Of a DNA stretch of 64,000 nucleotides, positions 1 through 64,000 are shown in pieces. A model generated the notes under the pieces. That model saw only the letters and a list, made by a program, of their open reading frames with translations, had not been told where the DNA came from and ran no database searches. Positions within the stretch are counted from its first letter, which is position 1, and each line of letters starts with the position of its first letter. The position numbers and the translations under genes were made by a program. The stretch lies in the NCBI GenBank assembly GCA_000146465.1, contig CP001943.1. One strand, given 5' to 3'.

Positions 1-805
1 ACTTCTTTTTCAGATCTCCATAAACTTCCTCCTCATCCATCACAAGCCCATAGTAAAGAGACAGAAACATCCCATCGCTCATCTCAATCCCTCTCTGAAT
101 CACCTTCTTGGCCTTCTCTTTCTGTCCAATGCCTATCAGATATTCACTATAGAAGAAGTAGGCTTCTTCTGCATAATAGAATGAATCTAGGATGTAATTG
201 TATATAAAGTGCATCCTAGACTCATGAGTTCTTCCCCCAAGCTTCATTCCGTTTTCCATCTCCAGATCTATTAGCTTTGCTGCATTCTTCACACTCCAGG
301 ACCTTATCAGCGGTTGCATCTGCTGATACCTTTGGAACGAACTCTGGAAAATAGGAAGGGTGTCGCTTACTATCTTCTTTCCTGTAATTTTGTTGAGCTC
401 TAGCTCAAAGTTCTCAAAGTCCTTCCATAGCTCGCTTAAGGAACTCATCGGCGTTTGCAGCGCTCTCATGTATCCATTTCTTATCTTTTCTATCCTTGTC
501 TGTTCATCCTCGATCTTTCCAAGCTCTTCAATGTATTCCTTGTACAGTCCATACGAGTCCCAGTAATTCTCAAACTGCCCTAACGTAAACTCATACACCT
601 CATACAACTTAAATTTCTTCTGGCTGACCTTTCGGACATACTCGATGTATAGCATCCAGAGCTCCAAGTTGTATGACTTCTTCAAACACTTTCCAAACAG
701 ACTTTCAAGACTCCTATAGTCCTTCGATGTATACAGATCTCTTGCATGCTCCATAATAGCTGAAGGACTGCCCATTTCAATCCCTGTTTTCTCTTCTACA
801 TCCAT
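1..805 (-). CDS. RNA14: mRNA 3'-end processing factor RNA14/CstF-77, N-terminal HAT-repeat part; the gene continues beyond the window start
   Basis: I translated the minus strand from the ATG at 805-803: MDVEEKTGIEMGSPSAIMEHARDLYTSKDYRSLESLFGKCLKKSYNLELWMLYIEYVRK...EQTRIEKIRNGYMRALQTPMSSLSELWKDFENFE. This aligns with the CstF-77 HAT repeats (human [24 protein letters not shown] and [34 protein letters not shown]). The reading frame stays open to position 1. The track does not list it because there is no stop inside the window. Confidence 0.7.
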   Translation of the reverse strand, partial: MDVEEKTGIEMGSPSAIMEHARDLYTSKDYRSLESLFGKCLKKSYNLELWMLYIEYVRKVSQKKFKLYEVYEFTLGQFENYWDSYGLYKEYIEELGKIEDEQTRIEKIRNGYMRALQTPMSSLSELWKDFENFELELNKITGKKIVSDTLPIFQSSFQRYQQMQPLIRSWSVKNAAKLIDLEMENGMKLGGRTHESRMHFIYNYILDSFYYAEEAYFFYSEYLIGIGQKEKAKKVIQRGIEMSDGMFLSLYYGLVMDEEEVYGDLKKK

Positions 806-860
806 CCGGGGTCAAAATTCCCCCAATATAACTCTTGTTCTAAAATCATTGGAAAAGGAA

Positions 861-1793
861 TCATTTATTCTTGTCCAAAAACTCCATGGCCTTTATCCCG
901 CATATGGCCCCTGAAGCTGCAGCCGTCACAGCCTGGCGGTACTTCCTATCGCAGACATCTCCTGCTGCAAAAAGGCCCGGAACACTTGTGCATGCATCGT
1001 CCTTCACAACAATGTATCCGTTGGAATCCAGATCTACATTTACACTCTTCAGAAACGAAGTGTTCGGATCATGGCCTATTCCAAAGAACACCCCATCCAT
1101 CGGAATTGTCTTTGTCTCCCCCGTCTCGGTATTGCGGACAACAATCTCTTTAATCTTGTTGGTTCCCTCTGCACGCTCCAGAACATAGGGCGTCATTATC
1201 TCGATGTTCTCTGTGTTCCTAGCCTTCTCAATCATGTCGCTCCTTGCACGGAACTCATTCCTTCGGTGGATGATGTAGACTTTCTTGGCAATGTTTGAAA
1301 GATAAAGCCCCTCCTCCATGGCTGCATCTCCCCCTCCAATCACACAGGTGACTTTGTTTACGTAAATAAACCCATCGCACACTGCACACGAGCTCACACC
1401 TTTCTGCCAGAACTCGTCATCTCCTGTTCCAGGTACAAAAAGCCGTCTTGCAGAGGCCCCTGTGGCAACAATAACAATCCTTGCCTTTTTCTCTCCTTTC
1501 TCACTGGAAACCACAAACCACTCATCCTCCTTCCTCACGTCCGAAACCGTCTCCTTGACAACCCGGAGTCCCCTCGAGACTGCATGTTCTTTCATCAGCT
1601 GGGTGAGTTCTGGCCCCTCAATTCCCCCCGGAAACCCTGGATAGTTATCTACCGACGTTGTTGTGGTAAGTTGGCCTCCTGGCCCATTATTTCCTATGTA
1701 CCCTCCCTCAAAAAGCAAAGGGTTTCCCCTCATCGTATACAGTGCTGCATTATAGGCTGCTGGCCCACTTCCTATAATAACAATGTTTTCCAT
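861..1793 (-). CDS. TRR1: thioredoxin reductase (low-Mr type, CAVC active site)
   Basis: MENIVIIGSGPAAY Rossmann start, CAVCDG redox motif and GGGDAAMEE NADPH site. The ORF-track start at 1817 is a TTG; the first ATG is at 1793. Confidence 0.85.
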   Translation of the reverse strand: MENIVIIGSGPAAYNAALYTMRGNPLLFEGGYIGNNGPGGQLTTTTSVDNYPGFPGGIEGPELTQLMKEHAVSRGLRVVKETVSDVRKEDEWFVVSSEKGEKKARIVIVATGASARRLFVPGTGDDEFWQKGVSSCAVCDGFIYVNKVTCVIGGGDAAMEEGLYLSNIAKKVYIIHRRNEFRARSDMIEKARNTENIEIMTPYVLERAEGTNKIKEIVVRNTETGETKTIPMDGVFFGIGHDPNTSFLKSVNVDLDSNGYIVVKDDACTSVPGLFAAGDVCDRKYRQAVTAAASGAICGIKAMEFLDKNK

Positions 1794-1851
1794 TGGGGCT
1801 TGATCCCGTCCGAACAATATCTCGCTAGGTCTTCCAATAATTAAGGCTAGA

Positions 1852-2490: not shown

Positions 2491-2574
2491 CGGATTGTTT
2501 ATTTCTACGTTTTAAAAACTATCCTCCAAGGAAAACATCTTAGTAGCCTAAACATAGAAAACAAACATTTAATC

Positions 2575-3177: not shown

Positions 3178-3250
3178 GGGTTGTTTGGGTATAAGGTATT
3201 TCTATCTCATTCCTTATTTGGCAAGGGATACACAAGGTTCATATGATGAT

Positions 3251-3748: not shown

Positions 3749-3779
3749 TCAGGGCTAGTCTGCAAACCCTCAATACAAG

Positions 3780-4232: not shown

Positions 4233-4301
4233 CTTCCTCTTGGTCGGAGGACAAAAGAAGTAAATCCTTTATTAATGATTAAATAAACCCAAGGGAATTG
4301 G

Positions 4302-4961: not shown

Positions 4962-5058
4962 TATTTACAAACTGTCTTTTGAATTTGTAGCTTAATCAAA
5001 AACCTGTTTCAAAGGGTGGTTGGGATGTTGATATGTAAGCAGCAGTAGACCCACGATA

Positions 5059-5847: not shown

Positions 5848-5909
5848 TGTACATTTGTACCCAAGGCTGGGGAGGACTAAAGATAACTTGTAAACAATGA
5901 TCCCTGGCA

Positions 5910-6590: not shown

Positions 6591-6930
6591 CAAGAGCAAA
6601 AGAGACAAAAATAAAACATTACAATAAAAGACTAGTCGGAACACAGCAAAGCCTTGTTCCAAAGGGAACATCTGTCATCAATGAGATGAAGAAACATCTC
6701 GGCTTCCATTTGGCTTGCTGCCACAACTCGTCATTCTAGCCTCGTGGGAATGCAATTGCTGCATTGTGACGTTTCTGGTTAACTAAACAAATGATTCTGA
6801 ATAGTATCCTCGACGCAAGGGCATAAGGCTCCTCGGAATTTATCTACCATTCAAAACGTTTTTCTACGTTCAGGAGGCAGAATTGCTTCTTCTGCAGTAA
6901 CTCCTTAAAAGCGAAAAGAACACCCAGAGC

Positions 6931-7152
6931 ATGGGTGGGGAACCGAAAAGTATATTGCCTCTTGAGAAGATATATGCCTTTTTGTCGAGGGCTGCCGATG
7001 TAGAGATATGGGAGAAGGACATCGGAGTTCGGCACAAAGGAAGAATCGTTGGTTTTGACGAGTACATGAACATTGTGATGGATAGTGGGGCAAAAAGATA
7101 CTTGCTGAAGGGAGACTGCATATCTGTGGTGTTTGGAAAGGACATAGACTAG
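6931..7152 (+). CDS. SME1: snRNP core protein SmE
   Basis: 73 aa. GRIVGFDEYMNIVMD...LKGDCISVV matches the SmE fold (IIGFDEYMNLVLDDAEE...LKGDNITLL). Confidence 0.8.
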   Translation: MGGEPKSILPLEKIYAFLSRAADVEIWEKDIGVRHKGRIVGFDEYMNIVMDSGAKRYLLKGDCISVVFGKDID

Positions 7153-9687: not shown

Positions 9688-9758
9688 TGGAGTTGCCAGG
9701 AATCGAACCCGGGCCAACTGCGTGCAAAGCAGGTATCATCCCACTAGACCACAACCCC
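9688..9758 (-). tRNA. tRNA-Ala (anticodon UGC)
   Basis: Reverse complement: GGGGTTGTGGTCTAGTGGGATGATACCTGCTTTGCACGCAGTTGGCCCGGGTTCGATTCCTGGCAACTCC plus discriminator A. Acceptor stem is 7 bp with the G3:U70 Ala identity pair. T-arm is CCGGG-TTCGATT-CCTGG. Anticodon loop is TTTGCAC, giving UGC. D-loop is AGTGGG. CCA is not encoded. The D-stem pairs poorly in my manual fold. Confidence 0.7.
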
Positions 9759-9837
9759 TCGCTTGGTCCCCCTTTCAAAAACACATCCCTCCATCCGCCC
9801 CCCTTCTAAAACCACGGATTCCCTCAACCCACATAGG

Positions 9838-11287: not shown

Positions 11288-11361
11288 TTAGGGCCCTGTT
11301 CCCAGTGGGAAATCCATTTGTCTGAAATGGTGTTGGGATTGAAGAAAGTACCCTTTCCAAG

Positions 11362-12906: not shown

Positions 12907-13380
<474 letters not shown>

Positions 13381-13481
13381 ATGAGTCTTTAATTTTATTA
13401 TGTTGCTTTGAATTTCCTTGGGAGTATAGGGATGGAAGATCTCTTGCCTGACGGAAATCTTTTGAAACGGCATACCCTACA

Positions 13482-15518: not shown

Positions 15519-15626
15519 AAGGGACTTAAAATAAAATTGTGAAAGCAATGCTTCAACGTTTTTCTAGATTTTTCCGGCTGTTTCGAGGAAAACGAAAATA
15601 TTTAACGGGAAATTCCCTAGCAATTA

Positions 15627-17696: not shown

Positions 17697-17769
17697 ATCT
17701 TATTAAATAATTCTCTCAACACTTGTAACATTTGTGTTTCTGTTAATTGGCCCAAAAAAATTGCTGGGG

Positions 17770-22164: not shown

Positions 22165-22223
22165 AGAAGGGACTTTCCTCCCAAAGGATTTATTACACTG
22201 GGGGCTTCTTGAAGCCCTTGGAC

Positions 22224-28241: not shown

Positions 28242-28285
28242 AGAGGGTAAATATTTTACAAAGGTGTTAACTAGGATAGGAGACA

Positions 28286-28289
28286 CCCC
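28286..28289 (+). promoter_or_regulatory. CCCC motif 2 nt upstream of the MCM4 ATG
   Basis: agacaCCCCaaATG. Confidence 0.4.
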
Positions 28290-31087: not shown

Positions 31088-31126
31088 CAGATGGTCTACC
31101 AAAAAAATGCAAATTTTTCCTCCCCG

Positions 31127-31750: not shown

Positions 31751-31851
31751 GGAATCAAAGAACTTTTTGAAATAAATTCTTATGGGCATTTTGTTTTGCA
31801 TGGTTCTTTGCAAATGATGTTTCTTGTCTAATAAAGGCCCTACAAAGGATA

Positions 31852-35858: not shown

Positions 35859-35945
35859 TTTGTTTAATGGGCCAAAATATTATCTGCCTATTCGTTGAGT
35901 GGCTGGCCGCAATACTACTAGAGGTATTCCAAGTCTTATACAAAG

Positions 35946-35950
35946 CCCCC
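35946..35950 (+). promoter_or_regulatory. C-run (CCCCC-GGG) immediately 5' of the Lig1 ATG; an example of the recurrent CCC-like start-proximal motif
   Basis: caaagCCCCCgggATG. See the window-wide finding. Confidence 0.4.
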
Positions 35951-37723: not shown

Positions 37724-37781
37724 TCAATTGGTGTAATATGTTTTCAAAAATTTTTAAGTTTGTGTTTTAGTTTTCACCCCA

Positions 37782-39949: not shown

Positions 39950-42736
39950 ATGCCTGGCCTCCCCCCAATGCAAAGGGAATTGGAAGACCTCATAACAAAG
40001 CTCAAAACAATGGCAATAGTTGATAATCACGAGGACTACAACTATTTAGTGTCGTGTACAGACAAGTACGACAACAAAGGAAAGATATTTGAGCTTCTGA
40101 GAAATAGGAACAATGCACCTGGGGAGATGGCACCTCTACTGTTTACATTCACATCGAAGCTCGGGACGGAGTCTGACGAAGGTCTGCTTGTTCGAATCAT
40201 TGACTTCATCAGAGGATGCAGAAGAGACTCGAGAGAGACCTCAGAATGGATGGTCAAGATCCTATTTTTGATTCTGGAAAAAGTCAAAGAGAAAAGGAAG
40301 GATTCTGCGATAAGGCTAAGGCTTCTTGAATGCATTAGGATTTACAGCCAGGACATAGGATTGGTCAACCACATGATCGATCTTATGTGTACGAAGAGTA
40401 GCTCCGAGATTATCGGGTCGATACTTGAATCCATTCCCTCAGTATCTCATGAGTTTATTGAATGTGCCATGAAGCAAGATAATCCAGCTCTGCTGAAAAA
40501 CCTGTCTCTTGTTCTTCCTTCCTTATCTGAAAAGGATATAAGTCTGTTTGTAAACTACGAGTCCTTTGAAGAATTTCTTGAGTCTGAGCACTTTTTTATG
40601 AGGAACTGCTTCCTGGAAATATGTGCAAACCTTGTAGAGCACTTTAAGAAGAAAGGAATGGTTGAGAAGATGAACGATCTTATAGGAATGGTTGTAGAGA
40701 GGTTATCTGACACATATTTCTTAACTCGGTATAAGGCTCTTCAGGTTCTAGAATGTCTCTTCCAAAGGAACTCAATAGGCGTAGGAAGAAGACATGAAAT
40801 CATTCGGGAGATTGGAGGTCGGGTTCTGGACAAAACGGTTGTCGTTCGAAAGAAGGCCATAGGGATTTGTTCTGGCTTACTTATGAGCCATCCCTTTGCA
40901 TCTGAAAAAAGTCTTGAAAAGAAGAATTTCAAGCCAAGCGAGGATGAAAACAACAGTAACTATCCTGACAATAAGAAAAAAGAGGTTGAAAGAAGGTATC
41001 ATGAAGACTTGAATGAGTTCCACGACATCATGAGGGAAATACAGGACAATGTCATAATTCTCCTGAATGGAGAGACTAAAACAGAAATTGCCGAATGTGT
41101 TGAATTTGTAAAGCTTTCCTTCTACTATAAAATAGATGGGTCCAAAGAGGCATTTGAATCACTCTTTGATCTTGTATGGACCCAAGACCAGGAACTCTTG
41201 GTTCTGTCTTTCAAAGACCTTATTATGCAGATGAAGATGAGCAAGATCAGCTTATTTGGCTTCTTCAAGGAGTTTATAAGGAAGGAAGGAAATCATTCGT
41301 TTGAAAGAATGATTAGAGAACTCAGTACAAGGAGGTATATAGATAAGTCATTTGTGGGGGAGCTATACAATACGTTTCTTCAAGGAGCTTATCTCTTTGA
41401 AACCTCTTATCTTTTAAGGCATATAGGAAGGCCTGTTCCGGTAGATATGTTCCACTCGTTGGCCCTGTCTATCACAAATCTTTTATTCTCTATCCAGGAG
41501 GAAAAGGATTTGGTTGAGATGCTGTCCGTGTACAAAAACATAATACAGATCAAGATACGGGAGAGGGTGGAATTCGATGGTGAGATAATAGAAATGCTCA
41601 TTAAGAACCTTGTGAAGATGACTTTCTTTGAACATCAGGTAACCGAGATAACTGTTTCTGTGATATATTCAATTAGCAGATTTCCCGAGAAGAGCATTAT
41701 CATGCTACTTGAAAAGCTTTGTATGATGGAAAAAAGCATGCTCAAGGTTATTTCTGCAGTAGGATATATTGGGCTGAAACACATGAAGTATCTAGAGGAG
41801 TTGGAAAGACTGGTGAAGTCCAACAGGATAAAAGTCAAGGTGGATAAAACAGTAATTACTCCTGAGATAGTGGAGAGGAGAAGAAGTATAAATGCATCTA
41901 GACAGAGTATTAGCACCATTATTGAAGAAGAAAGGGATGGGAATAGTACAATTCTAAGCGACCCTGGGTTTAGCAATAATATTTCCTCTAGGATTGGAGA
42001 CAAAAGTGAAGAGGAAATCATTGACTTTTTCTTCTACATTAAGGAGAAAGAGATGCTATATGGAAAAAGTATTCTCTCTATCTTCAAACGAATTGTTGAA
42101 GATGGATGCCACTCCAATGATGAGGAGATACAGGTTTGCTCGTATGTTTCCCTTTACAGGCTCATGTGCATTAGCTTTGAATTTTTTACCGAGCATTACG
42201 ATGTCTTTGTCAGGTCTATGAATCATCCGGTCTCTAGAGTTAGAGCAAATGCTGTTGTTGCAATGGGGGATTTTCTGTTGAACTACAATACCGTTGCAGA
42301 ACAACATACTTATCTTTTGCTTGAATCTCTTTCTGACGCAGATGTAGATGTTCGAAGAAATGCTCTTCTTGTAATTCACAATCTGCTTATGAAGAACATC
42401 CTTAAAATCAAGGGATATGGTTCCAAACTTGCAGTTCTTCTAATCGATGAGGAAACCGAAATTCGAGAAATGGCAGAACACCTTCTGGTGCAGATATCCA
42501 AGAAGGAGAATATGATGTCTGTCCTTCTCTACGAGACAATAACTGCAGGCAATGACCAACTATCTTCTGTTATAGGATTTTTTAGAGATTTGGTAAGCGA
42601 AAAAGTCAAGGAGAGTTTATTCTTGAAGGCCTTGAAGTCAAAGGTTGAACCAGAAACCTTGAGGCTTCTTCACAGTGCCTTTGATTTGGATGAAAAAATG
42701 ATGGAGGTGGTTAGACTCCTCGACGGATCTAAATAA
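39950..42736 (+). CDS. YCS4: condensin complex subunit 1 (Ycs4/CAP-D2)
   Basis: C-terminal Cnd1 domain: VRANAVVAMGDFLLNYNTVAEQHTYLLLESLSDADVDVRRNALLVIHNLLMKNILKIKGYGSKLAVLLIDEETEIREMAEHLL. This matches the Cnd1 consensus (LGDLavrFpN...VRknallvLthLILnDMIKVKGq...). The protein is HEAT-like throughout and 928 aa long. Confidence 0.7.
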   Translation: MPGLPPMQRELEDLITKLKTMAIVDNHEDYNYLVSCTDKYDNKGKIFELLRNRNNAPGEMAPLLFTFTSKLGTESDEGLLVRIIDFIRGCRRDSRETSEWMVKILFLILEKVKEKRKDSAIRLRLLECIRIYSQDIGLVNHMIDLMCTKSSSEIIGSILESIPSVSHEFIECAMKQDNPALLKNLSLVLPSLSEKDISLFVNYESFEEFLESEHFFMRNCFLEICANLVEHFKKKGMVEKMNDLIGMVVERLSDTYFLTRYKALQVLECLFQRNSIGVGRRHEIIREIGGRVLDKTVVVRKKAIGICSGLLMSHPFASEKSLEKKNFKPSEDENNSNYPDNKKKEVERRYHEDLNEFHDIMREIQDNVIILLNGETKTEIAECVEFVKLSFYYKIDGSKEAFESLFDLVWTQDQELLVLSFKDLIMQMKMSKISLFGFFKEFIRKEGNHSFERMIRELSTRRYIDKSFVGELYNTFLQGAYLFETSYLLRHIGRPVPVDMFHSLALSITNLLFSIQEEKDLVEMLSVYKNIIQIKIRERVEFDGEIIEMLIKNLVKMTFFEHQVTEITVSVIYSISRFPEKSIIMLLEKLCMMEKSMLKVISAVGYIGLKHMKYLEELERLVKSNRIKVKVDKTVITPEIVERRRSINASRQSISTIIEEERDGNSTILSDPGFSNNISSRIGDKSEEEIIDFFFYIKEKEMLYGKSILSIFKRIVEDGCHSNDEEIQVCSYVSLYRLMCISFEFFTEHYDVFVRSMNHPVSRVRANAVVAMGDFLLNYNTVAEQHTYLLLESLSDADVDVRRNALLVIHNLLMKNILKIKGYGSKLAVLLIDEETEIREMAEHLLVQISKKENMMSVLLYETITAGNDQLSSVIGFFRDLVSEKVKESLFLKALKSKVEPETLRLLHSAFDLDEKMMEVVRLLDGSK

Positions 42737-43228: not shown

Positions 43229-43261
43229 TTCGAGGGTTAATTTTCGAGTAGAGATAGGCCC

Positions 43262-44218: not shown

Positions 44219-44251
44219 AAAGCAGTTATAGCAAGCCTGTGTATTGTACCC

Positions 44252-45229: not shown

Positions 45230-45304
45230 GGGATAAGACCATTGATGGATAATATCTTTAAGCCCCAGATCCAGCTTCCAAAATCAAAAAACAGCTTCTT
45301 TATG

Positions 45305-45309
45305 CCCCC
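45305..45309 (+). promoter_or_regulatory. CCCCC motif abutting the Brn1 ATG
   Basis: ctttatgCCCCCATG. Confidence 0.4.
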
Positions 45310-48670: not shown

Positions 48671-48737
48671 TATATTTTTGCCTTTTCTCCTTTTTAAGCC
48701 ACACCTGAAACATGTTTCAATTGTCGATCAAATTACT

Positions 48738-49313
48738 TTAATCACCTCGATCTTCCCTGGCTGCTGAAAGCCTTTCTACCTTTCCTCCAATGAAATCTCT
48801 TATTCCTCTTTCGTTAATCGTATGAAATACATTCTTCTTTAAAGCTTCCCTATCCAACTCTAGAACATTGTCTTTACACTTTACAAATAAATTGAATAGG
48901 GCCACCTCGTTATAGAACGGATGGTCTATATTACACAGATCCATTTCTTCTTCAGGCCTGTCATAAAGAATAAAGTTAAGCATCTTCCCATATTCCCTAT
49001 CCAGACTACTCAATGAGGAGGTTGTCTTATTTCTGGTGCAGAAGTCATAATGAACTCGGAGAGCAAAAGAAATGTCTCCTGTGATTCCCTTTTCGCTTTT
49101 AAGAATTCCATTGATGATTCTTCTTTCGTCTGATGTATTTTCCCGATTGGCAGATGATTTGAGCATACCCATTATTTTTCTCTTTAGAGATATCTCCGGA
49201 CCAAAATCCATACCGGGATCAAGAATACTTACCAGCTTATCGTATCCGTAAATATCTCTTTTCGCCAGATTCTTCCATGCTGTCTTCTTTCTCTCGATGG
49301 CTTCCTTAATCAT
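48738..49313 (-). CDS. hypothetical protein (192 aa from the first ATG)
   Basis: The ORF-track start at 49367 is a TTG; the first ATG is at 49313. I recognise no domain. Confidence 0.35.
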   Translation of the reverse strand: MIKEAIERKKTAWKNLAKRDIYGYDKLVSILDPGMDFGPEISLKRKIMGMLKSSANRENTSDERRIINGILKSEKGITGDISFALRVHYDFCTRNKTTSSLSSLDREYGKMLNFILYDRPEEEMDLCNIDHPFYNEVALFNLFVKCKDNVLELDREALKKNVFHTINERGIRDFIGGKVERLSAAREDRGD

Positions 49314-49651
49314 TTGCTGTCTCCTATTTCCACAAATGACGGGGTTGTATTTCCCCCGAGTAACCAAGGATACATACAGCTTCAGGTTCTCTGATCTCCT
49401 CTGGCCCTTAAAATTACTCGAGGATCGGAGGCAACCCTTTCCACATATGATCTTTTTCTCTTGGCATTCGGATGCAGATATAGATGTGATTTATCTGAGA
49501 TTCTTATTCTTACAGCTGTAAACTTCGTTCTGTTTCCTACTAGCATGTATCCCTCACACAAACAGATAGAAACCTTTCTTGAAAAGAAGATCCCATAATC
49601 CAAAATCATTCGCTAGGGTTGGTTGAAAAATTAAAAACACCACATCCAGAG

Positions 49652-51702: not shown

Positions 51703-51813
51703 ACCCCTGTGTTGGGCGCGTTGCTTGTCTTTTATAAGCCCGAGTGTTCAAACCCAACATAAAGCAAATGTGTTTATTTGTACAAAAAATAGACAGATAT
51801 TTTCTTGTAATAT

Positions 51814-53091: not shown

Positions 53092-53177
53092 GCAAGGCTT
53101 CTGGTAATGGGGCTTATATAGACTATGCAATGAACATTAAAGATAAAGCATGGAATGGAAATCCATATGAAATAGCT

Positions 53178-53768: not shown

Positions 53769-53956
53769 GAGGGAGTTTCGGCAGAAATGGTTTTAGTCGA
53801 AATAAGGAAGCAAGTTTTTGATTTGGGGCAATTCCCACACACCCGAAAATGAAAACCTAAAGCATCAGGCAGTTGCATACATGGCAGAGGCGAAAGCATG
53901 CCACACTTGAGAAAGACTTAAGGTTCTTATAAATGTTATTAATTTCTCCACCCTTT

Positions 53957-55459
53957 ATGACTAAACAGAAGTTTGGGCTAACAGCCAAAAAAGAAGAAGA
54001 TTTTTCCGAATGGTATGTACAGGTTATAACAAAAGGAGAGATGATAGATTACTACGAGATTAAAGGATGCTATGTGATGCGCCCCCAGGGACAGTTTGTC
54101 TGGAAGTGTATCCAGAAATGGTTTACCGAAAAGATTGAAGAACTTGGTGTCCAAGAATGCTATTTTCCCATGCTAGTTCCCAAGTCGACGCTTGAAAAAG
54201 AGAAGAACCATGTGGAAAATTTTTCCCCCGAAGTAGCATGGATTACTAAGTGTGGAAATGAGGTCTTGGGAGATCCAGTTGCCGTGCGTCCTACATCCGA
54301 AACAATAATATATCCTTCTTTTTCTAAGTGGATAAGAAGCCACAGAGATCTTCCTCTAAAAATAAACCAATGGTGTAGTGTGCTGAGATGGGAGCTACAT
54401 GGGACCCTCCCTTTTATAAGAGGGAAGGAGTTTCTATGGCAGGAAGGGCACACAGCTTTTCTGACGAAAGAGGAATCGGATGTGGAGGTTTTTGCAATTC
54501 TGGATCTTTACTCCAGAATATACTCGGAGCTCCTTGCAGTTCCCGTGATAAAAGGAAGAAAGTCAGAAAGCGAGAAGTTTGGGGGAGCAGATTACACCAC
54601 GTCCATTGAAGCCTTTATCCCTGGATCAGGCCGGGGAATTCAAGCGGGAACCTCCCATTCCTTGGGACAGAACTTCTCAAAAATGTTTGATATTAAGGTC
54701 GACACAGAAGAAGGATCCGAAAATAGCAGCTTTGTCTACCAGAACTCCTGGGGGCTAACCACCCGATCCATTGGAATTGCAATTATGATACATTCGGACA
54801 ACCTTGGGTTGGTGCTTCCCCCAAGAGTAGCTATGATTCAGGTTGTTGTTATTCCCTGTGGGATAACAGCATCCTCTTCGGAAGAGGACGTTGAAAGTTT
54901 ACGCACATACATAAGCAAAATACATGCCCAGCTCAAAAACTTCGTTCGTGTGCATGTGGACGATCGGAATAATGTAACTGTTGGATTCAAATTCAATCAT
55001 TGGGAAATAAGAGGGGTTCCGTTAAGGTTAGAGGTTGGGTTCAAAGATATGGCTAACTCGGAAGCTTGCTTAGTTAGAAGGGACACCCGTGCCAAAAAGC
55101 AGGTATCTGTGGAGGATATCGGGCAGACAGTAATGGAGGAAATAGATACCATGCACAACGATATGCTTAGTAGGGCTACCACAGAAAGAGATAGGAGAAT
55201 TTCATATGTAAGAAGCTTCGAGGAGTTTATGTCTTCTCTTGAAAACAAAAAAATGATAATGGCACCGTGGTGTGGAGTTGATAAATGTGAAGCCAACATT
55301 AAATCTAAAACCACAAAGTTTGGGCCCAACGGAAATGTAGTTTCGACTGGGGCAAAGACCTTATGTATTCCTTATGAGGCAAAGTCCTGCAATGGAATGG
55401 AATGTATCAACTGCAACCAGAAGGCTATCCATTATGCTTTATTTGGAAGATCCTACTAA
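53957..55459 (+). CDS. prolyl-tRNA synthetase (eukaryote/archaeal-type class IIa with C-terminal zinc-binding domain)
   Basis: Class II motifs, an anticodon-binding domain and a C-terminal domain ending ...HYALFGRSY. I chose the ATG at 53957 (MTKQKF...) because CCC precedes it. An in-frame ATG at 53933 is also possible. Confidence 0.9.
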   Translation: MTKQKFGLTAKKEEDFSEWYVQVITKGEMIDYYEIKGCYVMRPQGQFVWKCIQKWFTEKIEELGVQECYFPMLVPKSTLEKEKNHVENFSPEVAWITKCGNEVLGDPVAVRPTSETIIYPSFSKWIRSHRDLPLKINQWCSVLRWELHGTLPFIRGKEFLWQEGHTAFLTKEESDVEVFAILDLYSRIYSELLAVPVIKGRKSESEKFGGADYTTSIEAFIPGSGRGIQAGTSHSLGQNFSKMFDIKVDTEEGSENSSFVYQNSWGLTTRSIGIAIMIHSDNLGLVLPPRVAMIQVVVIPCGITASSSEEDVESLRTYISKIHAQLKNFVRVHVDDRNNVTVGFKFNHWEIRGVPLRLEVGFKDMANSEACLVRRDTRAKKQVSVEDIGQTVMEEIDTMHNDMLSRATTERDRRISYVRSFEEFMSSLENKKMIMAPWCGVDKCEANIKSKTTKFGPNGNVVSTGAKTLCIPYEAKSCNGMECINCNQKAIHYALFGRSY

Positions 55460-55608: not shown

Positions 55609-57525
55609 TCATGCTAAAACCTGAAATCTCTCTTCCAAGAGAAGACAACCTTCTGGAGTATGGTTTTTGGGCTCGGCCTTATCAAGTATCCTTTTTTCCA
55701 GCAGAGCTTTGATTTCTTTATACGACTCCTCGTGGGATTTGGGAGAAACAATTTCCGAAGAAAAGCGGTCGAGAAAATGAATGGCAATTCCATTAGTCCA
55801 TCCAAATCCGACTTGCGCCGTATATTCCCCCTTATATCCAGGTGACCCAACCATCTCACAACTATATTTTTCAAAGATCCCCCTCTTTGTCTCGTCAACA
55901 ACGGATGTAGAAACAGATATGTTTTCTAAGTAGGATCTAACCATATGTAATGCCATTTCACGCTCACCCACTCTTTCTAAGAAAAACGCCACTATATGCA
56001 CAAGGGGAGGCCACATGTTGGGAAAATCCCATTGTAAGGTACTGTCCTTATTCTTAGATCCACTTGCAGGCATCCCTCCCGGATGTCCAAATATATCTTC
56101 TGCAAACATATTCAAAATGTGGTAAACGCTGACACCTTTGTCTTTTGGAGGAGGGATCCCATAGCACATCGGCATTAAGTTTGAGGCATAGAACCCAGGA
56201 GATGTATGCTCTCTTGTTTCAATATCAAAGTCATTCCATACACCTTGTTGATCGTTCCATAGCACATTATTAATGGCATCTTTTCTTTCTTCGCTCTTTT
56301 CTTTGAAGTACTTAGAGTTCTTGGAGTTTTTTCCTTCGATTATCTCATATAGCTTCGAAATGATACATTCATTGGCATACATTACTGAATTCAGATCCGC
56401 AGGAATCCTTTTGGAGACTCTTATGGAATCAAGTTGCCCGCTTAAGCCTAGCCATCTGGATGAAAAGTCCCATCCCGATTCGGCTCCGGCTTTTAAGTCG
56501 GCATAAATGTCTTCTGCTCTTCTTCTGTACTTCTCATCTCTGCTCTTATTTTGCTCTGCAGTTTCCCTGTCTTCACTATAAGACTCTGCTCTTGGCGTAG
56601 TATCGTTAACCTTGTAAACATTAAGTACATACGACTTTCCGTTCTTTTCAACCCTTTCAACTTTTTGGGTCATGAAGAAAGTATGCTCTGTTACTGCCGC
56701 ATCCAATCCCCTCTTGATAGTGTTTTCTATCTTCTCCCATGGTAAGTGTTTATAAAGAGTGAGAAGCATCTGAGGAAAGTATGGAGGCTGAGACCTGTTT
56801 AAATAGTATGTCCTAAGTCCATTAGGAATGAATCCAAACTGCTCTATCAGACCTATAAAGTTCTCCACCATTCCCACGGCAATTTTTTCCATACCGCTTC
56901 TGACAAGTCCTTCTAAGATCCAGCTACTATCCCAATAATAAGCCTCTTTGAATCGGTCTCCAGGAATAATAAATGGATTCTTGACCTTTATCATCGTTGA
57001 ATACTGTCCTCTCTTCAACCTATTCTGCCTTACGTAGATCTTACCCCATGCATTTTCGAGTTCTTTCCCGATTCTAATCAAGTTTGCTATAGATTGTTTG
57101 TATTGGCTGGTCTGGAAAAGAGGATTGGAGCCATCTGAAAGCTTTTCCTCAAGCTTGATTATATAGCTCGAGGTGTTCTTGGGCATATCTGCCTGAAGCT
57201 CTTTATCATCTTTACCAAATATAAGTTCGGTCTCTGGCTCAAAACTATTTTCATCTACAAACCTCCAAAAATCCTCCTCTTTTTCAAAAGATCTATTTTC
57301 TCGAAGCATGTTTCTAAGAATCTCATCAATTTCTTCTGGAGGCTTAGTAAACACCTTATCAACCAAAATCTTGCTATCCTTTGTAATCTTACTTACAAAA
57401 GAAACCTCGAGAAGTTCTGAACTCATTCGGGAGCCAGGATCCATAATTCCGGAAGCCCTTACGGGGATTATTGTACAAGCGGCAAGGAAAATATAGCGCA
57501 ATTTTACCCCGGAAGCCATCTCCAT
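55609..57525 (-). CDS. trehalase (GH37), with an N-terminal signal peptide
   Basis: Trehalase signature 1 IIPGDRFKEAYYWDSSWILEGL and signature 2 QWDFPNMWPP. The signal-like N-terminus is MEMASGVKLRYIFLAACTIIPVRASG. Confidence 0.9.
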   Translation of the reverse strand: MEMASGVKLRYIFLAACTIIPVRASGIMDPGSRMSSELLEVSFVSKITKDSKILVDKVFTKPPEEIDEILRNMLRENRSFEKEEDFWRFVDENSFEPETELIFGKDDKELQADMPKNTSSYIIKLEEKLSDGSNPLFQTSQYKQSIANLIRIGKELENAWGKIYVRQNRLKRGQYSTMIKVKNPFIIPGDRFKEAYYWDSSWILEGLVRSGMEKIAVGMVENFIGLIEQFGFIPNGLRTYYLNRSQPPYFPQMLLTLYKHLPWEKIENTIKRGLDAAVTEHTFFMTQKVERVEKNGKSYVLNVYKVNDTTPRAESYSEDRETAEQNKSRDEKYRRRAEDIYADLKAGAESGWDFSSRWLGLSGQLDSIRVSKRIPADLNSVMYANECIISKLYEIIEGKNSKNSKYFKEKSEERKDAINNVLWNDQQGVWNDFDIETREHTSPGFYASNLMPMCYGIPPPKDKGVSVYHILNMFAEDIFGHPGGMPASGSKNKDSTLQWDFPNMWPPLVHIVAFFLERVGEREMALHMVRSYLENISVSTSVVDETKRGIFEKYSCEMVGSPGYKGEYTAQVGFGWTNGIAIHFLDRFSSEIVSPKSHEESYKEIKALLEKRILDKAEPKNHTPEGCLLLEERFQVLA

Positions 57526-57740
57526 TTCTAACCTGTTTTTTGCTTTTAAACATTTGTAATAGTTTATTTAAGTTAAATTGTGCAAGCTAAATTATTCTAT
57601 AATCATTCCTGGTTATTGGTGAGATGTCATCTTAAGAGTCATCCCTAAAAGGAAGTTTAATATCATTATATTGAATTTACTTAGAGGAGGTGTGCAGCTT
57701 AAGTTATTTATATGTTTATTTCAAAAAAAGCCTACCCTTA

Positions 57741-58976: not shown

Positions 58977-59011
58977 TTTCTTAAGTATTTATTTGGTGCC
59001 CGATCCCTTGA

Positions 59012-60466: not shown

Positions 60467-60501
60467 CACGGATTGATAAGTGGAAATATTTTGCTCCCAG
60501 G

Positions 60502-60684
60502 ATGGGAGGGATCAGCGAGAAGTTGAAAGGACTAAAGTTTATGCAAAGAGCGGAGAGAAAAAACAATGGGGATGGAGAGGTGTCGTTTTCGACGTACTTT
60601 TGCAAGAAAGGAATTTTCAGTTACTGCAGCAAGCAAAAGATCCACGATAAGGAAGACGAAGCTCAAAAAAAGGCCAGGAACTAG
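60502..60684 (+). CDS. candidate small ORF (60 aa, basic), unannotated gap gene?
   Basis: ATG preceded by the gctCCCagg motif, as for neighbouring genes. The protein is MGGISEKLKGLKFMQRAERKNNGDGEVSFSTYFCKKGIFSYCSKQKIHDKEDEAQKKARN. It lies in an otherwise 296-bp gap. No recognised family. Confidence 0.25.
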   Translation: MGGISEKLKGLKFMQRAERKNNGDGEVSFSTYFCKKGIFSYCSKQKIHDKEDEAQKKARN

Positions 60685-60762
60685 AGCATTCCCATATCTC
60701 TTATTAAATATATGTATCCTATACGTAGGCTTTCTTTCTGGACCCTTTTGTGTTAGTATTAG

Positions 60763-61989
60763 ATGAATGAAGATGGAGTGAACATAAAAGAACTGATAAA
60801 CGCCAGATTTCAGAATCCAAAGTTTGTCTACGATGGAAAGAGGATGAGAGTCCTACAGGAAAGGAAGGTAGTTGACTATACATCGGGTATTTGTGTTCAA
60901 AGAGTGAAAAGGAGAATTGATCCACTACAAGTCAACACGAGCTTTGAACTTTCCTCACAGATTCTTAACCTAAAATCCCCAGAGCTATGCTACAATGATT
61001 TATCCAGCCTATTTACGACAAAGATCGAGCATGTCAGTGTCAACAAAGTCAAGTGCCCTGTTAACATTGTCAGATGGACTCCTGATGGAAGAAGACTAAT
61101 GAGCGGAACAGCTACAGGGGAATTCACATTGTGGAATGGCTATGGATGCAACTTTGAAACTATCCTTCAGGCACATGAATCACCTGTTAGAGGGATGGCT
61201 TGGTCTCCTTCGGGCTCGTTTTTGATATCCTCGGACAACTTTGGGATAATTAAGTACTGGCATCCATCGATGAACAATATACAAATAATACAAGGACATG
61301 CAGAGGCAGTAAGAGATCTTTCATTTTCTCACAACGATAGTAAGTTTTGCTCGGCTTCGGACGATTCAACAATAAAGATTTGGGACTCGATTGAAGCAAA
61401 AGAGGAATCAGTCCTTAGAGGTCATAACTGGGATGTAAGAGCAGCACAATGGCACAGATATAAATCGTTGATAGCAAGTGCAGGGAAGGATAATTTGGTT
61501 AAGATGTGGGATCCACGTACTGCAGAGGAGCTATGCACTCTACATCATCATAAGAATACAATACTAGCCTTGAAGTGGATGGGCGATGAAAACTATCTCC
61601 TTACAGGAGGAAAGGACCAGGTGATAAAAATGGTGGACATTAGAACAATGGCTGATGTGTTTACCTACAAGAATCACAAAAAGGAAGTTACATCAATAGG
61701 AATACATCCTTGTATTCCAGATATGTTTGTAAGCGGAGGTACGGAAGGAGGGATCTACTTTTGGCAAGCATATACTCAGGTGCCTTTGGAGGTTATCGAA
61801 GAGGGCCATGAGGGTACTGTGTGGTCACTAGATTACCATCCTGTGGGACACATCCTAGCATCTGGATCTGTAGATCAAAGCGTAAGATTTTGGGTTAGAC
61901 CAAGGCCAGACGAGAATGCTGAATCTACTGTTGGAGGATTTGTTGATGAAGAAAACAATTCTGATGGAGGAGCCATTCCAGGACTGTAG
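60763..61989 (+). CDS. PFS2: polyadenylation factor subunit Pfs2/WDR33 (WD40)
   Basis: Colinear with WDR33 across the blades: FTLWNGYGCNFETILQAHESPVRGMAWS, IKYWHPSMNNIQIIQGHAEAVRDLSFS, KFCSASDDSTIKIWD, LRGHNWDVRAAQWH, VKMWDPRTAEELCTLHHHKNTILALKW, GHILASGSVDQSVRFWVRPRPDE. Confidence 0.85.
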   Translation: MNEDGVNIKELINARFQNPKFVYDGKRMRVLQERKVVDYTSGICVQRVKRRIDPLQVNTSFELSSQILNLKSPELCYNDLSSLFTTKIEHVSVNKVKCPVNIVRWTPDGRRLMSGTATGEFTLWNGYGCNFETILQAHESPVRGMAWSPSGSFLISSDNFGIIKYWHPSMNNIQIIQGHAEAVRDLSFSHNDSKFCSASDDSTIKIWDSIEAKEESVLRGHNWDVRAAQWHRYKSLIASAGKDNLVKMWDPRTAEELCTLHHHKNTILALKWMGDENYLLTGGKDQVIKMVDIRTMADVFTYKNHKKEVTSIGIHPCIPDMFVSGGTEGGIYFWQAYTQVPLEVIEEGHEGTVWSLDYHPVGHILASGSVDQSVRFWVRPRPDENAESTVGGFVDEENNSDGGAIPGL

Positions 61990-62122
61990 TGTGGGTCTCC
62001 CTCCATGAAATATATATTTAAATGTTTGTGTGCTTCTATTATTAAATATGTTGTTGGGCTTTTTCTGTTTATCCTAGAAAGTTGGATAACTACAATTGAG
62101 AAAAAATAAAAACAAATCCTGG

Positions 62123-63409
62123 ATGATTACCGAGTACGAATACGATTTTGTTATTCTTGGAACGGGGCTAGTAGAGTGTGCGGTTGGATGTATCTTGGCT
62201 GGAAAGAATAAAAAAGTTATTCTAATAGATAGGAATCCGATGTACGGATCGGATTTTGCAACGCTGAGATACACAGAATTAGAGACGTACTTTCGGAGCT
62301 CAAACATGGTCCCCGAACTGAAAACCTATGATTCCGAATTTTCGGTTGATCTTACTCCGAAGCTGTTCCTTGCGGATAGTAAGATGCTGAAGATGCTAGT
62401 CAGGTATGGGATTGATGAATATTTAGAGTTCTGTAGAATTCCCGGATCTTTTCTATGGAAAAGAAAGCTATATTCTGTCCCGACGAACGAGGCTCAGTCC
62501 ATGACCACTGGGCTTATAGGAATATGGCAAAAGCCAAAAGTCATGAGGTTTTTTTGGAATGTCCGGGACTATGCAAGAGCCGCAATGAAGGGCAAGTCTT
62601 ATCAATTCAAGAGTACTATGAGAGAAGAATTCAAGGAGTATGGACTTACGGAAGAATCGATGGAACTTATAGGGCATGGAATAGCCTTGAATCTTGACGA
62701 TTCCTATCTGGACAGACATCCCAAAGAGACGTTTGATAAGATCTTAACGTACGTAAGGTCTATTATATGCTATGAAAACTCGATGGAGTCACCTTATTTA
62801 TATCCAAGATATGGGCTTTCTGAAATTGCTCAGGGATTTGCGCGAAGTTGCTGTACAAAGGGAGGGGAGATAATGATAAATGCGGAGATGCTGGAAATCG
62901 ATGAAGCAAAGATGGAGTTGTTAGTTCGAGAACCTGTCAACAAAGAAATCTTGAAAATAAAGGCAGGAAAGATAATTTCAGATCAGTCCTATTTCCAGAA
63001 AAGTGTTGTTTTATATGAAGTTATAAGAGGAATATGTATAGTACGAGGGGATTCGGTTGATATAACAAAGGGAGCTTCTTCAGCCCAGGTGATCTTCCTA
63101 AAAGGAGAGCTTGGAAGGAAGAATGACATCTTTGTTGTTGTATTGGGATCTGAGGAGAAGTCTACGCCTGAAGGCTATAAGGCGGTTATTATAAGTACTG
63201 TGAGAGAAACAGATAATCCTGAGAAAGAGATAGAGGTTGTTTTGGAGAGGTTGGGGGATGTTGTAAGGTACTTCATTGATGTAAAGCCGGTATACGAAGC
63301 GGAAGACATGGAGAATATAGTTTTTACAAAGGGTGTGGACGAATCCCCCCACTTTGAGGACATTTATGAAGAGATAGAAAGGATTTGCAAAAAGCTAGAC
63401 GTTTGTTGA
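62123..63409 (+). CDS. GDI1: Rab GDP-dissociation inhibitor (GDI/REP family)
   Basis: EYEYDFVILGTGLVECAVGCILAGKNKKVILIDRNPMYGSDFATL is the GDI FAD-like N-terminal signature. It is about 430 aa, like GDI. The ORF-track start at 62096 is a TTG; the first ATG is at 62123. Confidence 0.8.
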   Translation: MITEYEYDFVILGTGLVECAVGCILAGKNKKVILIDRNPMYGSDFATLRYTELETYFRSSNMVPELKTYDSEFSVDLTPKLFLADSKMLKMLVRYGIDEYLEFCRIPGSFLWKRKLYSVPTNEAQSMTTGLIGIWQKPKVMRFFWNVRDYARAAMKGKSYQFKSTMREEFKEYGLTEESMELIGHGIALNLDDSYLDRHPKETFDKILTYVRSIICYENSMESPYLYPRYGLSEIAQGFARSCCTKGGEIMINAEMLEIDEAKMELLVREPVNKEILKIKAGKIISDQSYFQKSVVLYEVIRGICIVRGDSVDITKGASSAQVIFLKGELGRKNDIFVVVLGSEEKSTPEGYKAVIISTVRETDNPEKEIEVVLERLGDVVRYFIDVKPVYEAEDMENIVFTKGVDESPHFEDIYEEIERICKKLDVC

Positions 63410-63497
63410 CTAGCCAATCACCTCTGAATTTCCGGTGATAAGAGGCTTGTTAATCTTTAGAAGCGAGGTTACAACTATTGGATTTCATAAAGCCCTT

Positions 63498-64000
63498 ATG
63501 GAAATAAAGACAGGGATGATAAGTGGGGCTCTTTCGTCTTGCTATTTGAAGACTAATAAAACATCAGTTATATGCTGCATCTATCTAGAGCAAAAAGGAG
63601 AGACGGAGCCACAAACCGAGGTACATTTCTCCGAGGGACTACCTCTGCAGATTCGTTCAGGAGTTAGCTCAATCGTAAAGTCGTTATTTTCAACAAAAAC
63701 TAGATCTACAAGGATCAAAGTGACATTCCATGCTGTGAGATGTGGAGAGGACTTGTTTTCTTGTCTTGTAAACTCTTTTTCCGTATGTGCCATACTATCT
63801 GGGATTGGGATCATAGATACCATTTGTTCTAGTACTGTATATGCTGACAAGAATAACATTTCGCTTACAAGTCAGTTGAATTCTTTCCCTCTACACATGG
63901 TGTATATGATTCACAAGAAAAGAATCATGCAGGTGCATTTTGATGGGTGCCTTGACTCTTCTCTTTTTGTTAAAGCCACTGAGAGGCTTGTCCAGACATG
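63498..64000 (+). CDS. exosome RNase-PH-like subunit (Rrp46/Mtr3/Rrp41 class); N-terminal part only, the gene runs off the window end
   Basis: Open frame from the ATG at 63498 (preceded by CCC) to the window end. It is absent from the track because it has no stop. GALSSCYLKTNKTSVICCIYLEQKGE fits the RNase-PH domain (GSAyvE.GnTKVlcaVyGP) and the second half motif. Confidence 0.45.
   Translation, partial: MEIKTGMISGALSSCYLKTNKTSVICCIYLEQKGETEPQTEVHFSEGLPLQIRSGVSSIVKSLFSTKTRSTRIKVTFHAVRCGEDLFSCLVNSFSVCAILSGIGIIDTICSSTVYADKNNISLTSQLNSFPLHMVYMIHKKRIMQVHFDGCLDSSLFVKATERLVQT

What the first reader, a model, noticed from the sequence alone, without database searches (positions are those of the whole stretch)
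1..64000. Recurrent C-triplet within about 20 nt upstream of start codons (GGG downstream of CAT for minus-strand genes)
Reading the 20 nt before each chosen ATG, I find a CCC(C) run for roughly 25-30 of about 50 genes. Examples are archease cagggctagtctgcaaaCCCtcaatacaagATG, SmE caCCCagagcATG, Erb1 taCCCtttccaagATG, HSP90 ttCCCtagcaattaATG, Sec24 caCCCCaATG, Dim1 taCCCATG and Brn1 CCCCCATG. Minus-strand genes show the mirror CAT...GGG (p24 CATgggttg, E2F CATgaggg, PPTA CATttagggccc). This is the CCC-like transcription-start/promoter signal reported for Encephalitozoon-type microsporidia. It explains the ultra-short intergenic spacers. It also helps choose between alternative ATGs: Lig1 35954 over 35867, ProRS 53957 over 53933 and SPCS2 28241 over 28319. 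It supports the small ORF at 60502.
Basis: partly seen in the sequence, partly recalled or inferred. Interest (0 to 1): 0.5.

Follow-up and report, generated by a model that had tools for sequence, protein, structure and literature searches.

The report
Known microsporidian CCC promoter signal

Summary
With a motif-blind gene set (first ATG of the longest ORFs), 32 of 52 starts have CCC in -20..-1. The rate is 8% at internal ATGs and 13% at all ATGs (p 3e-22 and 2e-16). CCC is by far the most enriched of the 64 triplets.

After homology-checked start corrections the count is 40 of 51 (78%). The signal is sense-strand specific, peaks at -15..-1, and is equally common in divergent and tandem gene pairs.

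The window is E. intestinalis chromosome II. In syntenic loci from E. cuniculi, E. hellem, two Ordospora species and two unnamed relatives, 67-85% of orthologous starts carry the triplet.

The same triplet, with an upstream TATA-like block, lies 4 nt before the untranslated U3 snoRNA in three lineages. That favours transcription over translation.

All of this is published (Cornman 2009; Peyretaillade 2009 and 2012; Belkorchia 2015 and 2017; MicroAnnot 2024).

Verdict: real, correctly interpreted, not novel. The claim that the motif "explains" the short spacers is not supported.

The parts
808..811 (-). C-run, 2 nt upstream of the ATG at 805 (Suf/CstF77-like gene, partial)
   Evidence: conserved in sp54 and O. 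colligata
1795..1798 (-). C-run, 1 nt upstream of the ATG at 1793 (thioredoxin-reductase-like)
3178..3180 (-). CCC abutting the ATG at 3177 (p24/EMP24)
3752..3754 (-). CCC, 3 nt upstream of the ATG at 3748 (TRAPP-like); shares a 31-nt divergent spacer with archease
3767..3769 (+). CCC, 10 nt upstream of the ATG at 3780 (archease)
5050..5052 (+). CCC, 6 nt upstream of the ATG at 5059
5902..5904 (+). CCC, 5 nt upstream of the ATG at 5910 (LisH/CTLH)
6819..6821 (-). CCC, 4 nt upstream of the inferred 5' end (6814) of the U3 snoRNA, a gene that is not translated
   Evidence: Rfam. In alignment A2 the CCC is invariant in E. intestinalis, O. colligata and sp54 while the flanking spacers vary.
6838..6843 (-). 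TATA-like ATAAAT block about 17-22 nt upstream of the U3 CCC
   Evidence: ATA-A invariant in three lineages
6923..6925 (+). CCC, 5 nt upstream of the ATG at 6931 (SmE/LSM, 73 aa)
9828..9830 (+). CCC, 7 nt upstream of the ATG at 9838; further C-runs lie upstream
11291..11293 (-). CCC, 3 nt upstream of the ATG at 11287 (PPTA)
11351..11353 (+). CCC, 8 nt upstream of the ATG at 11362 (Erb1/BOP1-like)
12907..12909 (+). CCC, 12 nt upstream of the ATG at 12922 (ubiquitin fusion), preceded by AAATTTTTT
13475..13477 (+). CCC, 4 nt upstream of the ATG at 13482 (XPD helicase)
15615..15617 (+). CCC, 9 nt upstream of the ATG at 15627 (HSP90)
17751..17753 (+). CCC, 16 nt upstream of the ATG at 17770 (RRP12-like); orthologs have it at 4 nt
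22169..22171 (-). CCC, 4 nt upstream of the ATG at 22164 (MIF4G)
22215..22217 (+). CCC, 6 nt upstream of the ATG at 22224 (MEC1/ATR-like kinase)
28245..28247 (-). CCC, 3 nt upstream of the ATG at 28241 (SPC25/SPCS2); marks the true start rather than 28319
28286..28289 (+). CCCC, 2 nt upstream of the ATG at 28292 (MCM)
31122..31125 (+). CCCC, 1 nt upstream of the ATG at 31127 (NTF2); true start rather than 31091
31838..31840 (+). CCC, 11 nt upstream of the ATG at 31852 (FYRN)
35869..35871 (-). CCC, 10 nt upstream of the ATG at 35858 (GlnRS), preceded by AATATTTT
35946..35950 (+). CCCCC, 3 nt upstream of the ATG at 35954 (DNA ligase I); true start rather than 35867
37777..37780 (+). CCCC, 1 nt upstream of the ATG at 37782 (Sec24)
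39961..39966 (+). CCCCCC, 1 nt upstream of the ATG at 39968 (condensin Cnd1); true start rather than 39950
43234..43236 (-). CCC, 5 nt upstream of the ATG at 43228 (TAFII28)
43259..43261 (+). CCC abutting the ATG at 43262
44249..44251 (+). CCC abutting the ATG at 44252 (DIM1)
45230..45232 (-). CCC abutting the ATG at 45229
45305..45309 (+). CCCCC abutting the ATG at 45310 (Cnd2/Brn1)
49616..49618 (-). CCC, 6 nt upstream of the ATG at 49609; true start of a 291-aa gene that is frameshifted in this sequence
51714..51716 (-). CCC, 11 nt upstream of the ATG at 51702 (V-ATPase G), with TATAAAAG 14 nt further upstream
53109..53112 (-). CCCC, 17 nt upstream of the ATG at 53091 (ThiF-type), directly after TATATAAG
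53771..53773 (-). CCC, 2 nt upstream of the ATG at 53768 (E2F)
53951..53953 (+). CCC, 3 nt upstream of the ATG at 53957 (ProRS); true start rather than 53933
57735..57737 (+). CCC, 3 nt upstream of the ATG at 57741 (M48 peptidase)
59005..59007 (+). CCC, 4 nt upstream of the ATG at 59012 (MUS81/ERCC4)
60496..60498 (+). CCC, 3 nt upstream of the ATG at 60502 (60-aa ORF 60502-60684, Eint_021355), preceded by AAATATTTT
60743..60745 (+). CCC, 17 nt upstream of the ATG at 60763 (WD40)
63493..63495 (+). CCC, 2 nt upstream of the ATG at 63498 (RNase PH-like, partial)

Best explanation
The C-triplet is the microsporidian 'CCC-like' core-promoter signal. It is a short, orientation-specific DNA element that sits a few bases upstream of the transcription start site. 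Because microsporidian mRNAs have almost no 5' leader, it therefore also sits 0-17 nt upstream of the start codon.

It usually works together with an A/T-rich, TATA-like or AAATTT-like element about 10-25 nt further upstream. Together these would position the initiation complex and give direction in spacers of only 30-100 bp.

Shown here: enrichment, sense-strand specificity, position, independence from gene arrangement, conservation of presence and spacing across genera, the associated A/T-rich element, and presence in front of the untranslated U3 gene.

Taken from the literature: mapped 5' ends in E. cuniculi lie 1-6 nt upstream of the AUG and downstream of the motif, and the motif precedes all ncRNA genes.

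Inferred and untested anywhere: which factor reads the triplet, and whether it is required for initiation.
For: Enrichment is 32/52 in the motif-blind set and 40/51 in the refined set, against 8-13% background. Density is six times that of the rest of the intergenic DNA, on the sense strand only.

Frequency is the same in divergent (20/24) and tandem (20/27) arrangements, and each partner of a 31-50 nt divergent spacer has its own triplet.

In seven species or lineages, 67-85% of orthologous starts carry the triplet, against 5-20% at all ATGs. The CCC-to-ATG gap is conserved between E. intestinalis and O. colligata (Spearman 0.88, p 1.5e-6, n=18). Presence or absence is concordant between lineages (Fisher p 0.009 and 0.0014).

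AAWWTT lies within 40 nt upstream of the CCC in 12/40 genes, against 3.5% by chance. A+T peaks at 77% at 16-20 nt upstream of the triplet.

The CCC 4 nt before the U3 snoRNA 5' end, with an upstream ATA-A block, is invariant in three lineages while the spacers between them vary.

Against: There are no RNA 5'-end data for this window or species, so the position of the triplet relative to the start site is inferred from E. cuniculi.

Eleven of 51 genes lack the triplet, and that absence is conserved, so it is not obligatory. For genes with a gap of 0-3 nt, the triplet could be partly inside the transcript.

A 3-nt motif has little information, and no binding factor or mutational test exists. The U3 evidence is a single locus; its 5' end was inferred from the Rfam models and from my recollection of the yeast U3 5' sequence, not mapped.

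Some ortholog start coordinates come from public annotations that may themselves have used the CCC rule. This is mitigated by the motif-blind set and the stop-codon test.
Confidence: 0.8

Rival explanations
1. The triplet acts in the mRNA as a translation-initiation context. It would be Kozak-like, or Shine-Dalgarno-like pairing with the reduced small-subunit rRNA, rather than a DNA promoter element.
For: It is defined relative to the ATG. It co-occurs with a +4 purine bias (42/51). Thirty-one of 40 gaps are 6 nt or less. For very short gaps it could lie within a transcript that starts a few bases earlier.
Against: The distance to the ATG varies from 0 to 17 nt, unlike a fixed-register context. 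The same triplet, at the same kind of distance and with a TATA-like block, precedes the untranslated U3 snoRNA in three lineages. It is also reported before all ncRNA genes (PMC5499648). Published 5'RACE puts the mRNA 5' ends 1-6 nt from the AUG and highlights the motif as lying upstream of them (PMC2803860).
Confidence: 0.07
2. The triplet has a dual role. It is a promoter-proximal DNA element whose last bases are also often the first transcribed bases, so it shapes both start-site choice and the extreme 5' end of the mRNA (cap-proximal sequence).
For: Five genes have CCC abutting the ATG and sixteen more have gaps of 1-3 nt. Published leaders are 1-6 nt, so overlap is arithmetically possible.
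Against: No data bear on it here. For U3 the conserved block ends 4 nt before the inferred 5' end.
Confidence: 0.1
3. It has no function. It is a compositional by-product (C-rich spacers or a 3'-end signal of the upstream gene) or an artefact of choosing ATGs by eye.
Against: A motif-blind gene set gives p 3e-22. Per-sequence shuffles never exceed 18 against 32 observed. The rest of the intergenic DNA has the same CCC density as coding DNA. Only 5/51 genes have CCC after the stop codon. Divergent pairs, which have no upstream 3' end, carry it as often as tandem pairs. It is conserved in lineages whose flanking bases have diverged.
Confidence: 0.02

Closest known systems
CCC-like transcriptional signal of Microsporidia (Cornman et al. 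2009, PMC2685015; Peyretaillade et al. 2009, PMC2803860; Peyretaillade et al. 2012 Nat Commun, as cited in the text of PMC10815200 read)
   Same: A sense-strand cytosine triplet, mostly within 15 nt of the ATG and present in most genes. It is conserved across microsporidia, comes with a +4 purine bias, and is used to pick start codons and support small ORFs. All of these features were reproduced here for E. intestinalis.
   Different: Nothing substantive. The 'purine-CCC-pyrimidine' bracket described for E. cuniculi is weak in this window: purine at -1 in 24/40, T at +1 in 19/40.
AAATTT-like / A-rich / TATA-like upstream signal of microsporidian genes (PMC2803860; TATA peak near -27 in N. ceranae, PMC2685015)
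   Same: AAWWTT occurs within 40 nt upstream of the CCC in 12/40 genes. Clear TATA boxes precede V-ATPase G and ThiF. A+T peaks 16-20 nt upstream of the triplet.
   Different: Here it is not limited to ribosomal-protein genes. It also precedes SPC25, GlnRS, NTF2 and the 60-aa ORF.
CCC/GGG motif 5' of microsporidian non-coding RNA genes (Belkorchia et al. 2017, PMC5499648)
   Same: In this window the U3 snoRNA has CCC 4 nt before its 5' end and a TATA-like block upstream.
   Different: The tRNA-Ala at 9688-9758 has no conserved CCC upstream: GGG runs in two lineages and nothing in O. colligata.
GGG-like alternative motif (PMC2803860)
   Same: Three CCC-less genes (7386, 9589, 51313) have GGG within 20 nt of the ATG.
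   Different: It is not statistically supported here: 3/11 against a 14% background, with no positional GGG peak.
Initiator (Inr) and Kozak context of other eukaryotes
   Same: A short element tied to the start of the transcript or the coding region.
   Different: The sequence differs, it lies upstream of rather than across the mapped start site (from the literature), and its register to the AUG is variable.

Membership tests
Microsporidian CCC-like transcription signal | Sense-strand cytosine triplet within about 15-20 nt upstream of the start codon in the majority of genes | tested here: met
   32/52 in the motif-blind set and 40/51 in the refined set; background 8-13%
Microsporidian CCC-like transcription signal | Positional peak close to the ATG (published: -10 to -3) and none on the opposite strand | tested here: met
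   Bins -15, -10 and -5 hold 9, 13 and 14 hits; the GGG profile is flat. Sense density is 5.4 per 100 nt against 1.6 antisense.
Microsporidian CCC-like transcription signal | Host genome is a microsporidian | tested here: met
   Proteins are 100% identical to E. intestinalis ATCC 50506 entries
Microsporidian CCC-like transcription signal | Conserved at orthologous genes in other microsporidia | tested here: met
   67-85% of orthologous starts in E. cuniculi, E. hellem, O. colligata, O. pajunii and two unnamed lineages. Gap correlation 0.88. Presence/absence concordant.
Microsporidian CCC-like transcription signal | Lies just upstream of the mapped transcription start, with 5'UTR under about 7 nt | not testable with these tools
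   No RNA data are available. This rests on E. cuniculi 5'RACE (PMC2803860, PMC4589312, PMC5499648).
Microsporidian CCC-like transcription signal | Accompanied upstream by an A/T-rich, AAATTT-like or TATA-like element | tested here: met
   AAWWTT in 12/40 against 3.5% (p 9e-9); A+T 77% at 16-20 nt upstream
Microsporidian CCC-like transcription signal | Also present 5' of non-coding RNA genes | tested here: met
   U3 snoRNA in three lineages; only one ncRNA locus was available
Microsporidian CCC-like transcription signal | Predicts the correct start codon among in-frame ATGs | tested here: met
   Five of five corrections are backed by ortholog stop codons. There is one likely false call, trehalase codon 34.
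GGG-like alternative signal | GGG replaces CCC near the ATG in CCC-less genes more often than chance | tested here: inconclusive
   3/11 against a 14% background; the sample is too small
Kozak-type translation context | Fixed register relative to the AUG and restricted to translated genes | tested here: not met
   The gap is 0-17 nt, and the motif is present before U3 snoRNA

The most novel reading that the evidence does not exclude
The roughly 20% of genes without the triplet are a conserved, separate promoter class rather than noise. Absence is concordant between E. intestinalis and lineages with only 52-64% protein identity (Fisher p 0.009 and 0.0014).

Three CCC-less genes carry a conserved forkhead-site-like RTAAACA at -7 to -32 from the ATG in two or three deep lineages. 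They are DUF5089 at 2490 and the unnamed genes at 4961 and 33054. The background rate is 0.5-2% per 40 nt.

Other CCC-less genes keep their own conserved blocks: a TATA-like block in BRCT, and ACATGTTTCAGGTGTGGCTTAAAAA upstream of PMT.

This could mark genes under specific, for example stage-specific, control instead of the default CCC promoter. A fork-head-like motif has been reported in T. hominis (PMC3486916). In the papers I read I did not see a link between that motif and CCC-less promoters in Encephalitozoon/Ordospora.
Probability: 0.3. Interest if true: 0.35.

Novelty: already known. Interest (0 to 1): 0.1.

Why it matters
The signal is useful rather than surprising. In genomes with almost no 5' leaders it marks true start codons, validates tiny genes and flags broken gene models.

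It does all three in this window. It identifies five starts that a first-ATG rule gets wrong. It supports a 60-aa gene. It also shows that Eint_021270 is the 3' part of a frameshifted 291-aa gene.

Biologically it remains an open problem: no factor that reads the triplet has been identified and no mutational test exists. This window adds no leverage on that beyond replication.

Tried and rejected
1. An extended consensus around the triplet. 'CCC followed by A/T' looked absolute in the first set (32/32). It falls to 37/40 in the refined set against an 84% background, so it is not significant. The purine-before and pyrimidine-after bracket is weak.

2. GGG as a second signal has no positional peak and is not enriched in CCC-less genes.

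3. Dependence on gene arrangement or spacer length: none was found. The median spacer is 73.5 nt with the motif and 103 nt without it.

4. An intron reading of ATGGTAAGT at DIM1 (44252) was rejected. The codons are conserved as coding sequence (MVSV / MVSA) and all orthologs are 138-141 aa.

5. The ARAGORN 'tRNA-Val' at 54428-54526 was rejected. It lies inside the ProRS coding sequence, is 99 nt long, and has no Rfam support.

6. Candidate ORFs at 6870-7145(-), 33726-33920(-) and 60566-60766(+) from the greedy set were treated as spurious. They overlap SmE or the 60-aa gene, or have no counterpart in the gene calls of orthologous loci.

7. The literature searches (Grisdale 2013 read) turned up no genome-wide start-site maps for Encephalitozoon that would place the triplet relative to start sites. 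The RACE studies remain the only 5'-end evidence.

Full report
**What the window is.** The window is 93% coding, about 41% G+C, with 51 protein genes and a median spacer of 78 nt (range 31-379). The PI3K-like kinase at 22224-27647 and the BRCT protein at 49652-51313 are 100% identical to E. intestinalis ATCC 50506 proteins. HSP90 is found exactly in an NCBI assembly (GCA_051312795.1). Locus tags recovered by exact look-up are Eint_0212xx-0213xx, which places the window on chromosome II.

- CCC occurs in -20..-1 of 32 of them (62%). The controls are 8.1% of 1293 internal ATGs, 12.7% of all 2488 ATGs on both strands and 12.8% of random positions (binomial p 3e-22 and 2e-16).
- CCC is the top triplet of 64; the runner-up, CCT, has p 1e-6.
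- Shuffling each upstream 20-mer gives 9.7 +/- 2.4 and never more than 18.
- The positional profile peaks sharply in the last 15 nt. GGG on the sense strand has no peak. Only 5/51 genes have CCC in the 20 nt after the stop codon.
- Sense-strand CCC density is 5.4 per 100 nt in the proximal zone, against 0.9 in the remaining intergenic DNA and 0.9 in coding DNA.

**Are the start-codon choices right?** I fetched syntenic loci from E. hellem, E. cuniculi, O. colligata, O. pajunii, an E. hellem-like Encephalitozoon from a public read set (Logan SRR23946965), and an unnamed relative with 54-64% protein identity (Logan SRR21023573, called 'sp54' here).
- For Lig1 (35954), SPC25/SPCS2 (28241), ProRS (53957), NTF2 (31127) and Cnd1 (39968), at least one and usually two species have an in-frame stop with no upstream ATG immediately 5' of the homologous, CCC-preceded ATG. 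The upstream extension in E. intestinalis therefore cannot be conserved coding sequence.
- The 60-aa ORF at 60502-60684 is conserved (M-x-G/E-I-S-E-K-L-K-G) and is called in four other species. It is already annotated as Eint_021355.
- With these corrections and SmE (6931), 40 of 51 genes (78%) carry the triplet. The gaps are 0-17 nt.
- The rule is not perfect. In trehalase the only CCC-preceded ATG is codon 34, downstream of a hydrophobic N-terminus that E. hellem and sp54 also have.

**What is it?** The triplet is orientation-specific. It is as frequent in divergent pairs (20/24) as in tandem pairs (20/27). In divergent spacers as short as 31-50 nt each gene has its own copy. It is therefore not a 3'-end signal of the upstream gene and not a general property of spacers.
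- Across seven lineages, 67-85% of orthologous starts carry it, against 5-20% at all ATGs.
- The distance to the ATG is conserved between E. intestinalis and O. colligata (Spearman 0.88, p 1.5e-6).
- Whether a gene has it at all is concordant between E. intestinalis and O. colligata (p 0.009, n=45) and sp54 (p 0.0014, n=46).
- An A/T-rich element accompanies it. AAWWTT occurs within 40 nt upstream in 12/40 genes, against 3.5% by chance. A+T peaks at 77% at 16-20 nt upstream. Textbook TATA boxes precede V-ATPase G and ThiF. This geometry is what one expects if transcription starts just after the triplet.

**Transcription or translation?** The window holds one informative non-coding gene, the U3 snoRNA at 6630-6814 on the minus strand.
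- I set its 5' end from the Rfam models and from the yeast U3 5' sequence GUCGACGUACUU, which I recalled from memory.
- That 5' end is preceded by ...TAGAAAAA..(15 nt)..ATAAAT..(about 14 nt)..CCCttgc.
- In alignment with O. colligata and sp54, the CCC, the ATA-A block and the TAGAAAAA block are invariant, while the spacers between them are not.
- An element that precedes an untranslated RNA at the same distance as it precedes ATGs argues for a transcriptional role and against a Kozak-like one. The variable 0-17 nt register points the same way.

**Comparison with what is known.** Every element of this is published.
- Cornman et al. 2009 found the cytosine triplet upstream of N. ceranae and E. 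cuniculi start codons, enriched at -10 to -3.
- Peyretaillade et al. 2009 mapped E. cuniculi 5' ends 1-6 nt from the AUG. They named the CCC-like, GGG-like and AAATTT-like signals, noted the +4 purine bias (42/51 here), and corrected 364 start codons with them.
- The signals were later used to find small genes in all four Encephalitozoon genomes. They were found 5' of all ncRNA genes with RACE-mapped starts and are built into the MicroAnnot pipeline.
- T. hominis and Nematocida have the motif too.
- The one claim I do not accept is that the motif 'explains' the short spacers. [quoted passage not shown] Closeness to the ATG therefore predates compaction and permits it rather than causing it.
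- The published GGG-like alternative is not supported by this small sample: 3/11 against a 14% background.

**What remains open.** No factor that reads the triplet is known, no mutational test exists, and I had no RNA data. The residual novelty lies in the CCC-less genes. Their lack of the triplet is conserved, and three of them share a conserved RTAAACA element close to the ATG. This is a lead, not a result.

**Verdict.** The feature is real, highly significant and correctly identified. It is useful for annotation and already known. Interest is low.

Noticed in passing
window 48738-49609 (minus), frameshift near 49390-49400: The ortholog of a 291-295 aa conserved gene is split into a 75-aa and a 191-aa ORF. 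The cause is an apparent 4-nt deletion (GGAGATCAGAGAACC, where intact copies encode GDQKENL). The reference annotation Eint_021270 is only the 191-aa 3' part. Four other E. intestinalis assemblies encode an intact 291-aa protein (P0080). This is either a strain-specific lesion or an error in this assembly. The CCC sits at the true start, 49609.
   Followed up: yes
window 6630-6814 (minus): U3 snoRNA between the LisH/CTLH gene and SmE. Three upstream blocks are conserved (TAGAAAAA, ATAAAT, CCC) in E. intestinalis, O. colligata and an unnamed relative.
   Followed up: yes
window 2491-2510, 4962-4975 and 33055-33075 (minus-strand upstream regions); L012, L013, L003-L007: CCC-less genes (DUF5089 family; unnamed genes at 4961 and 33054) carry a conserved forkhead-site-like RTAAACA(A) 7-32 nt upstream of the ATG in two or three deep lineages. 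The E. intestinalis copy upstream of 4961 reads GTAAATA, one mismatch. Absence of CCC is itself conserved between lineages.
   Followed up: partly
window 57427-57525 (minus), trehalase N-terminus: The first ATG has no CCC and encodes a signal-peptide-like segment that E. hellem and the unnamed relative share. The E. cuniculi annotation starts at the equivalent of codon 28. In this window the CCC-preceded ATG is codon 34. This could mean two isoforms, or an over-trimmed E. cuniculi gene model.
   Followed up: partly
window 48671-48715 (upstream of PMT, minus): The block ACATGTTTCAGGTGTGGCTTAAAAA is conserved upstream of the protein O-mannosyltransferase gene in five species. That gene has no CCC in any of them.
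   Followed up: no
window 33551-33929: An unusually long (379 nt) spacer lies upstream of the homeobox gene (33550, minus). It is also long in all orthologous loci. The gene lacks CCC in Encephalitozoon but has it in Ordospora and the unnamed relative. A 64-aa ORF here (33726-33920) has no Pfam match and no counterpart in the gene calls of other species.
   Followed up: partly
window 9688-9758 (minus): tRNA-Ala(UGC) lies in the 248-nt spacer between the Gti1/Pac2 gene and the gene at 9838. It has no conserved CCC upstream. The opposite-strand gene at 9838 has four C-runs within 45 nt of its ATG.
   Followed up: partly
L006, L011, L013 (Logan SRR21023573) and L004 (Logan SRR23946965): Two public read-set assemblies contain long syntenic contigs of Encephalitozoon/Ordospora-like microsporidia, and the records give no species name. 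One has only 54-64% protein identity to E. intestinalis and upstream regions unlike either genus.
   Followed up: no
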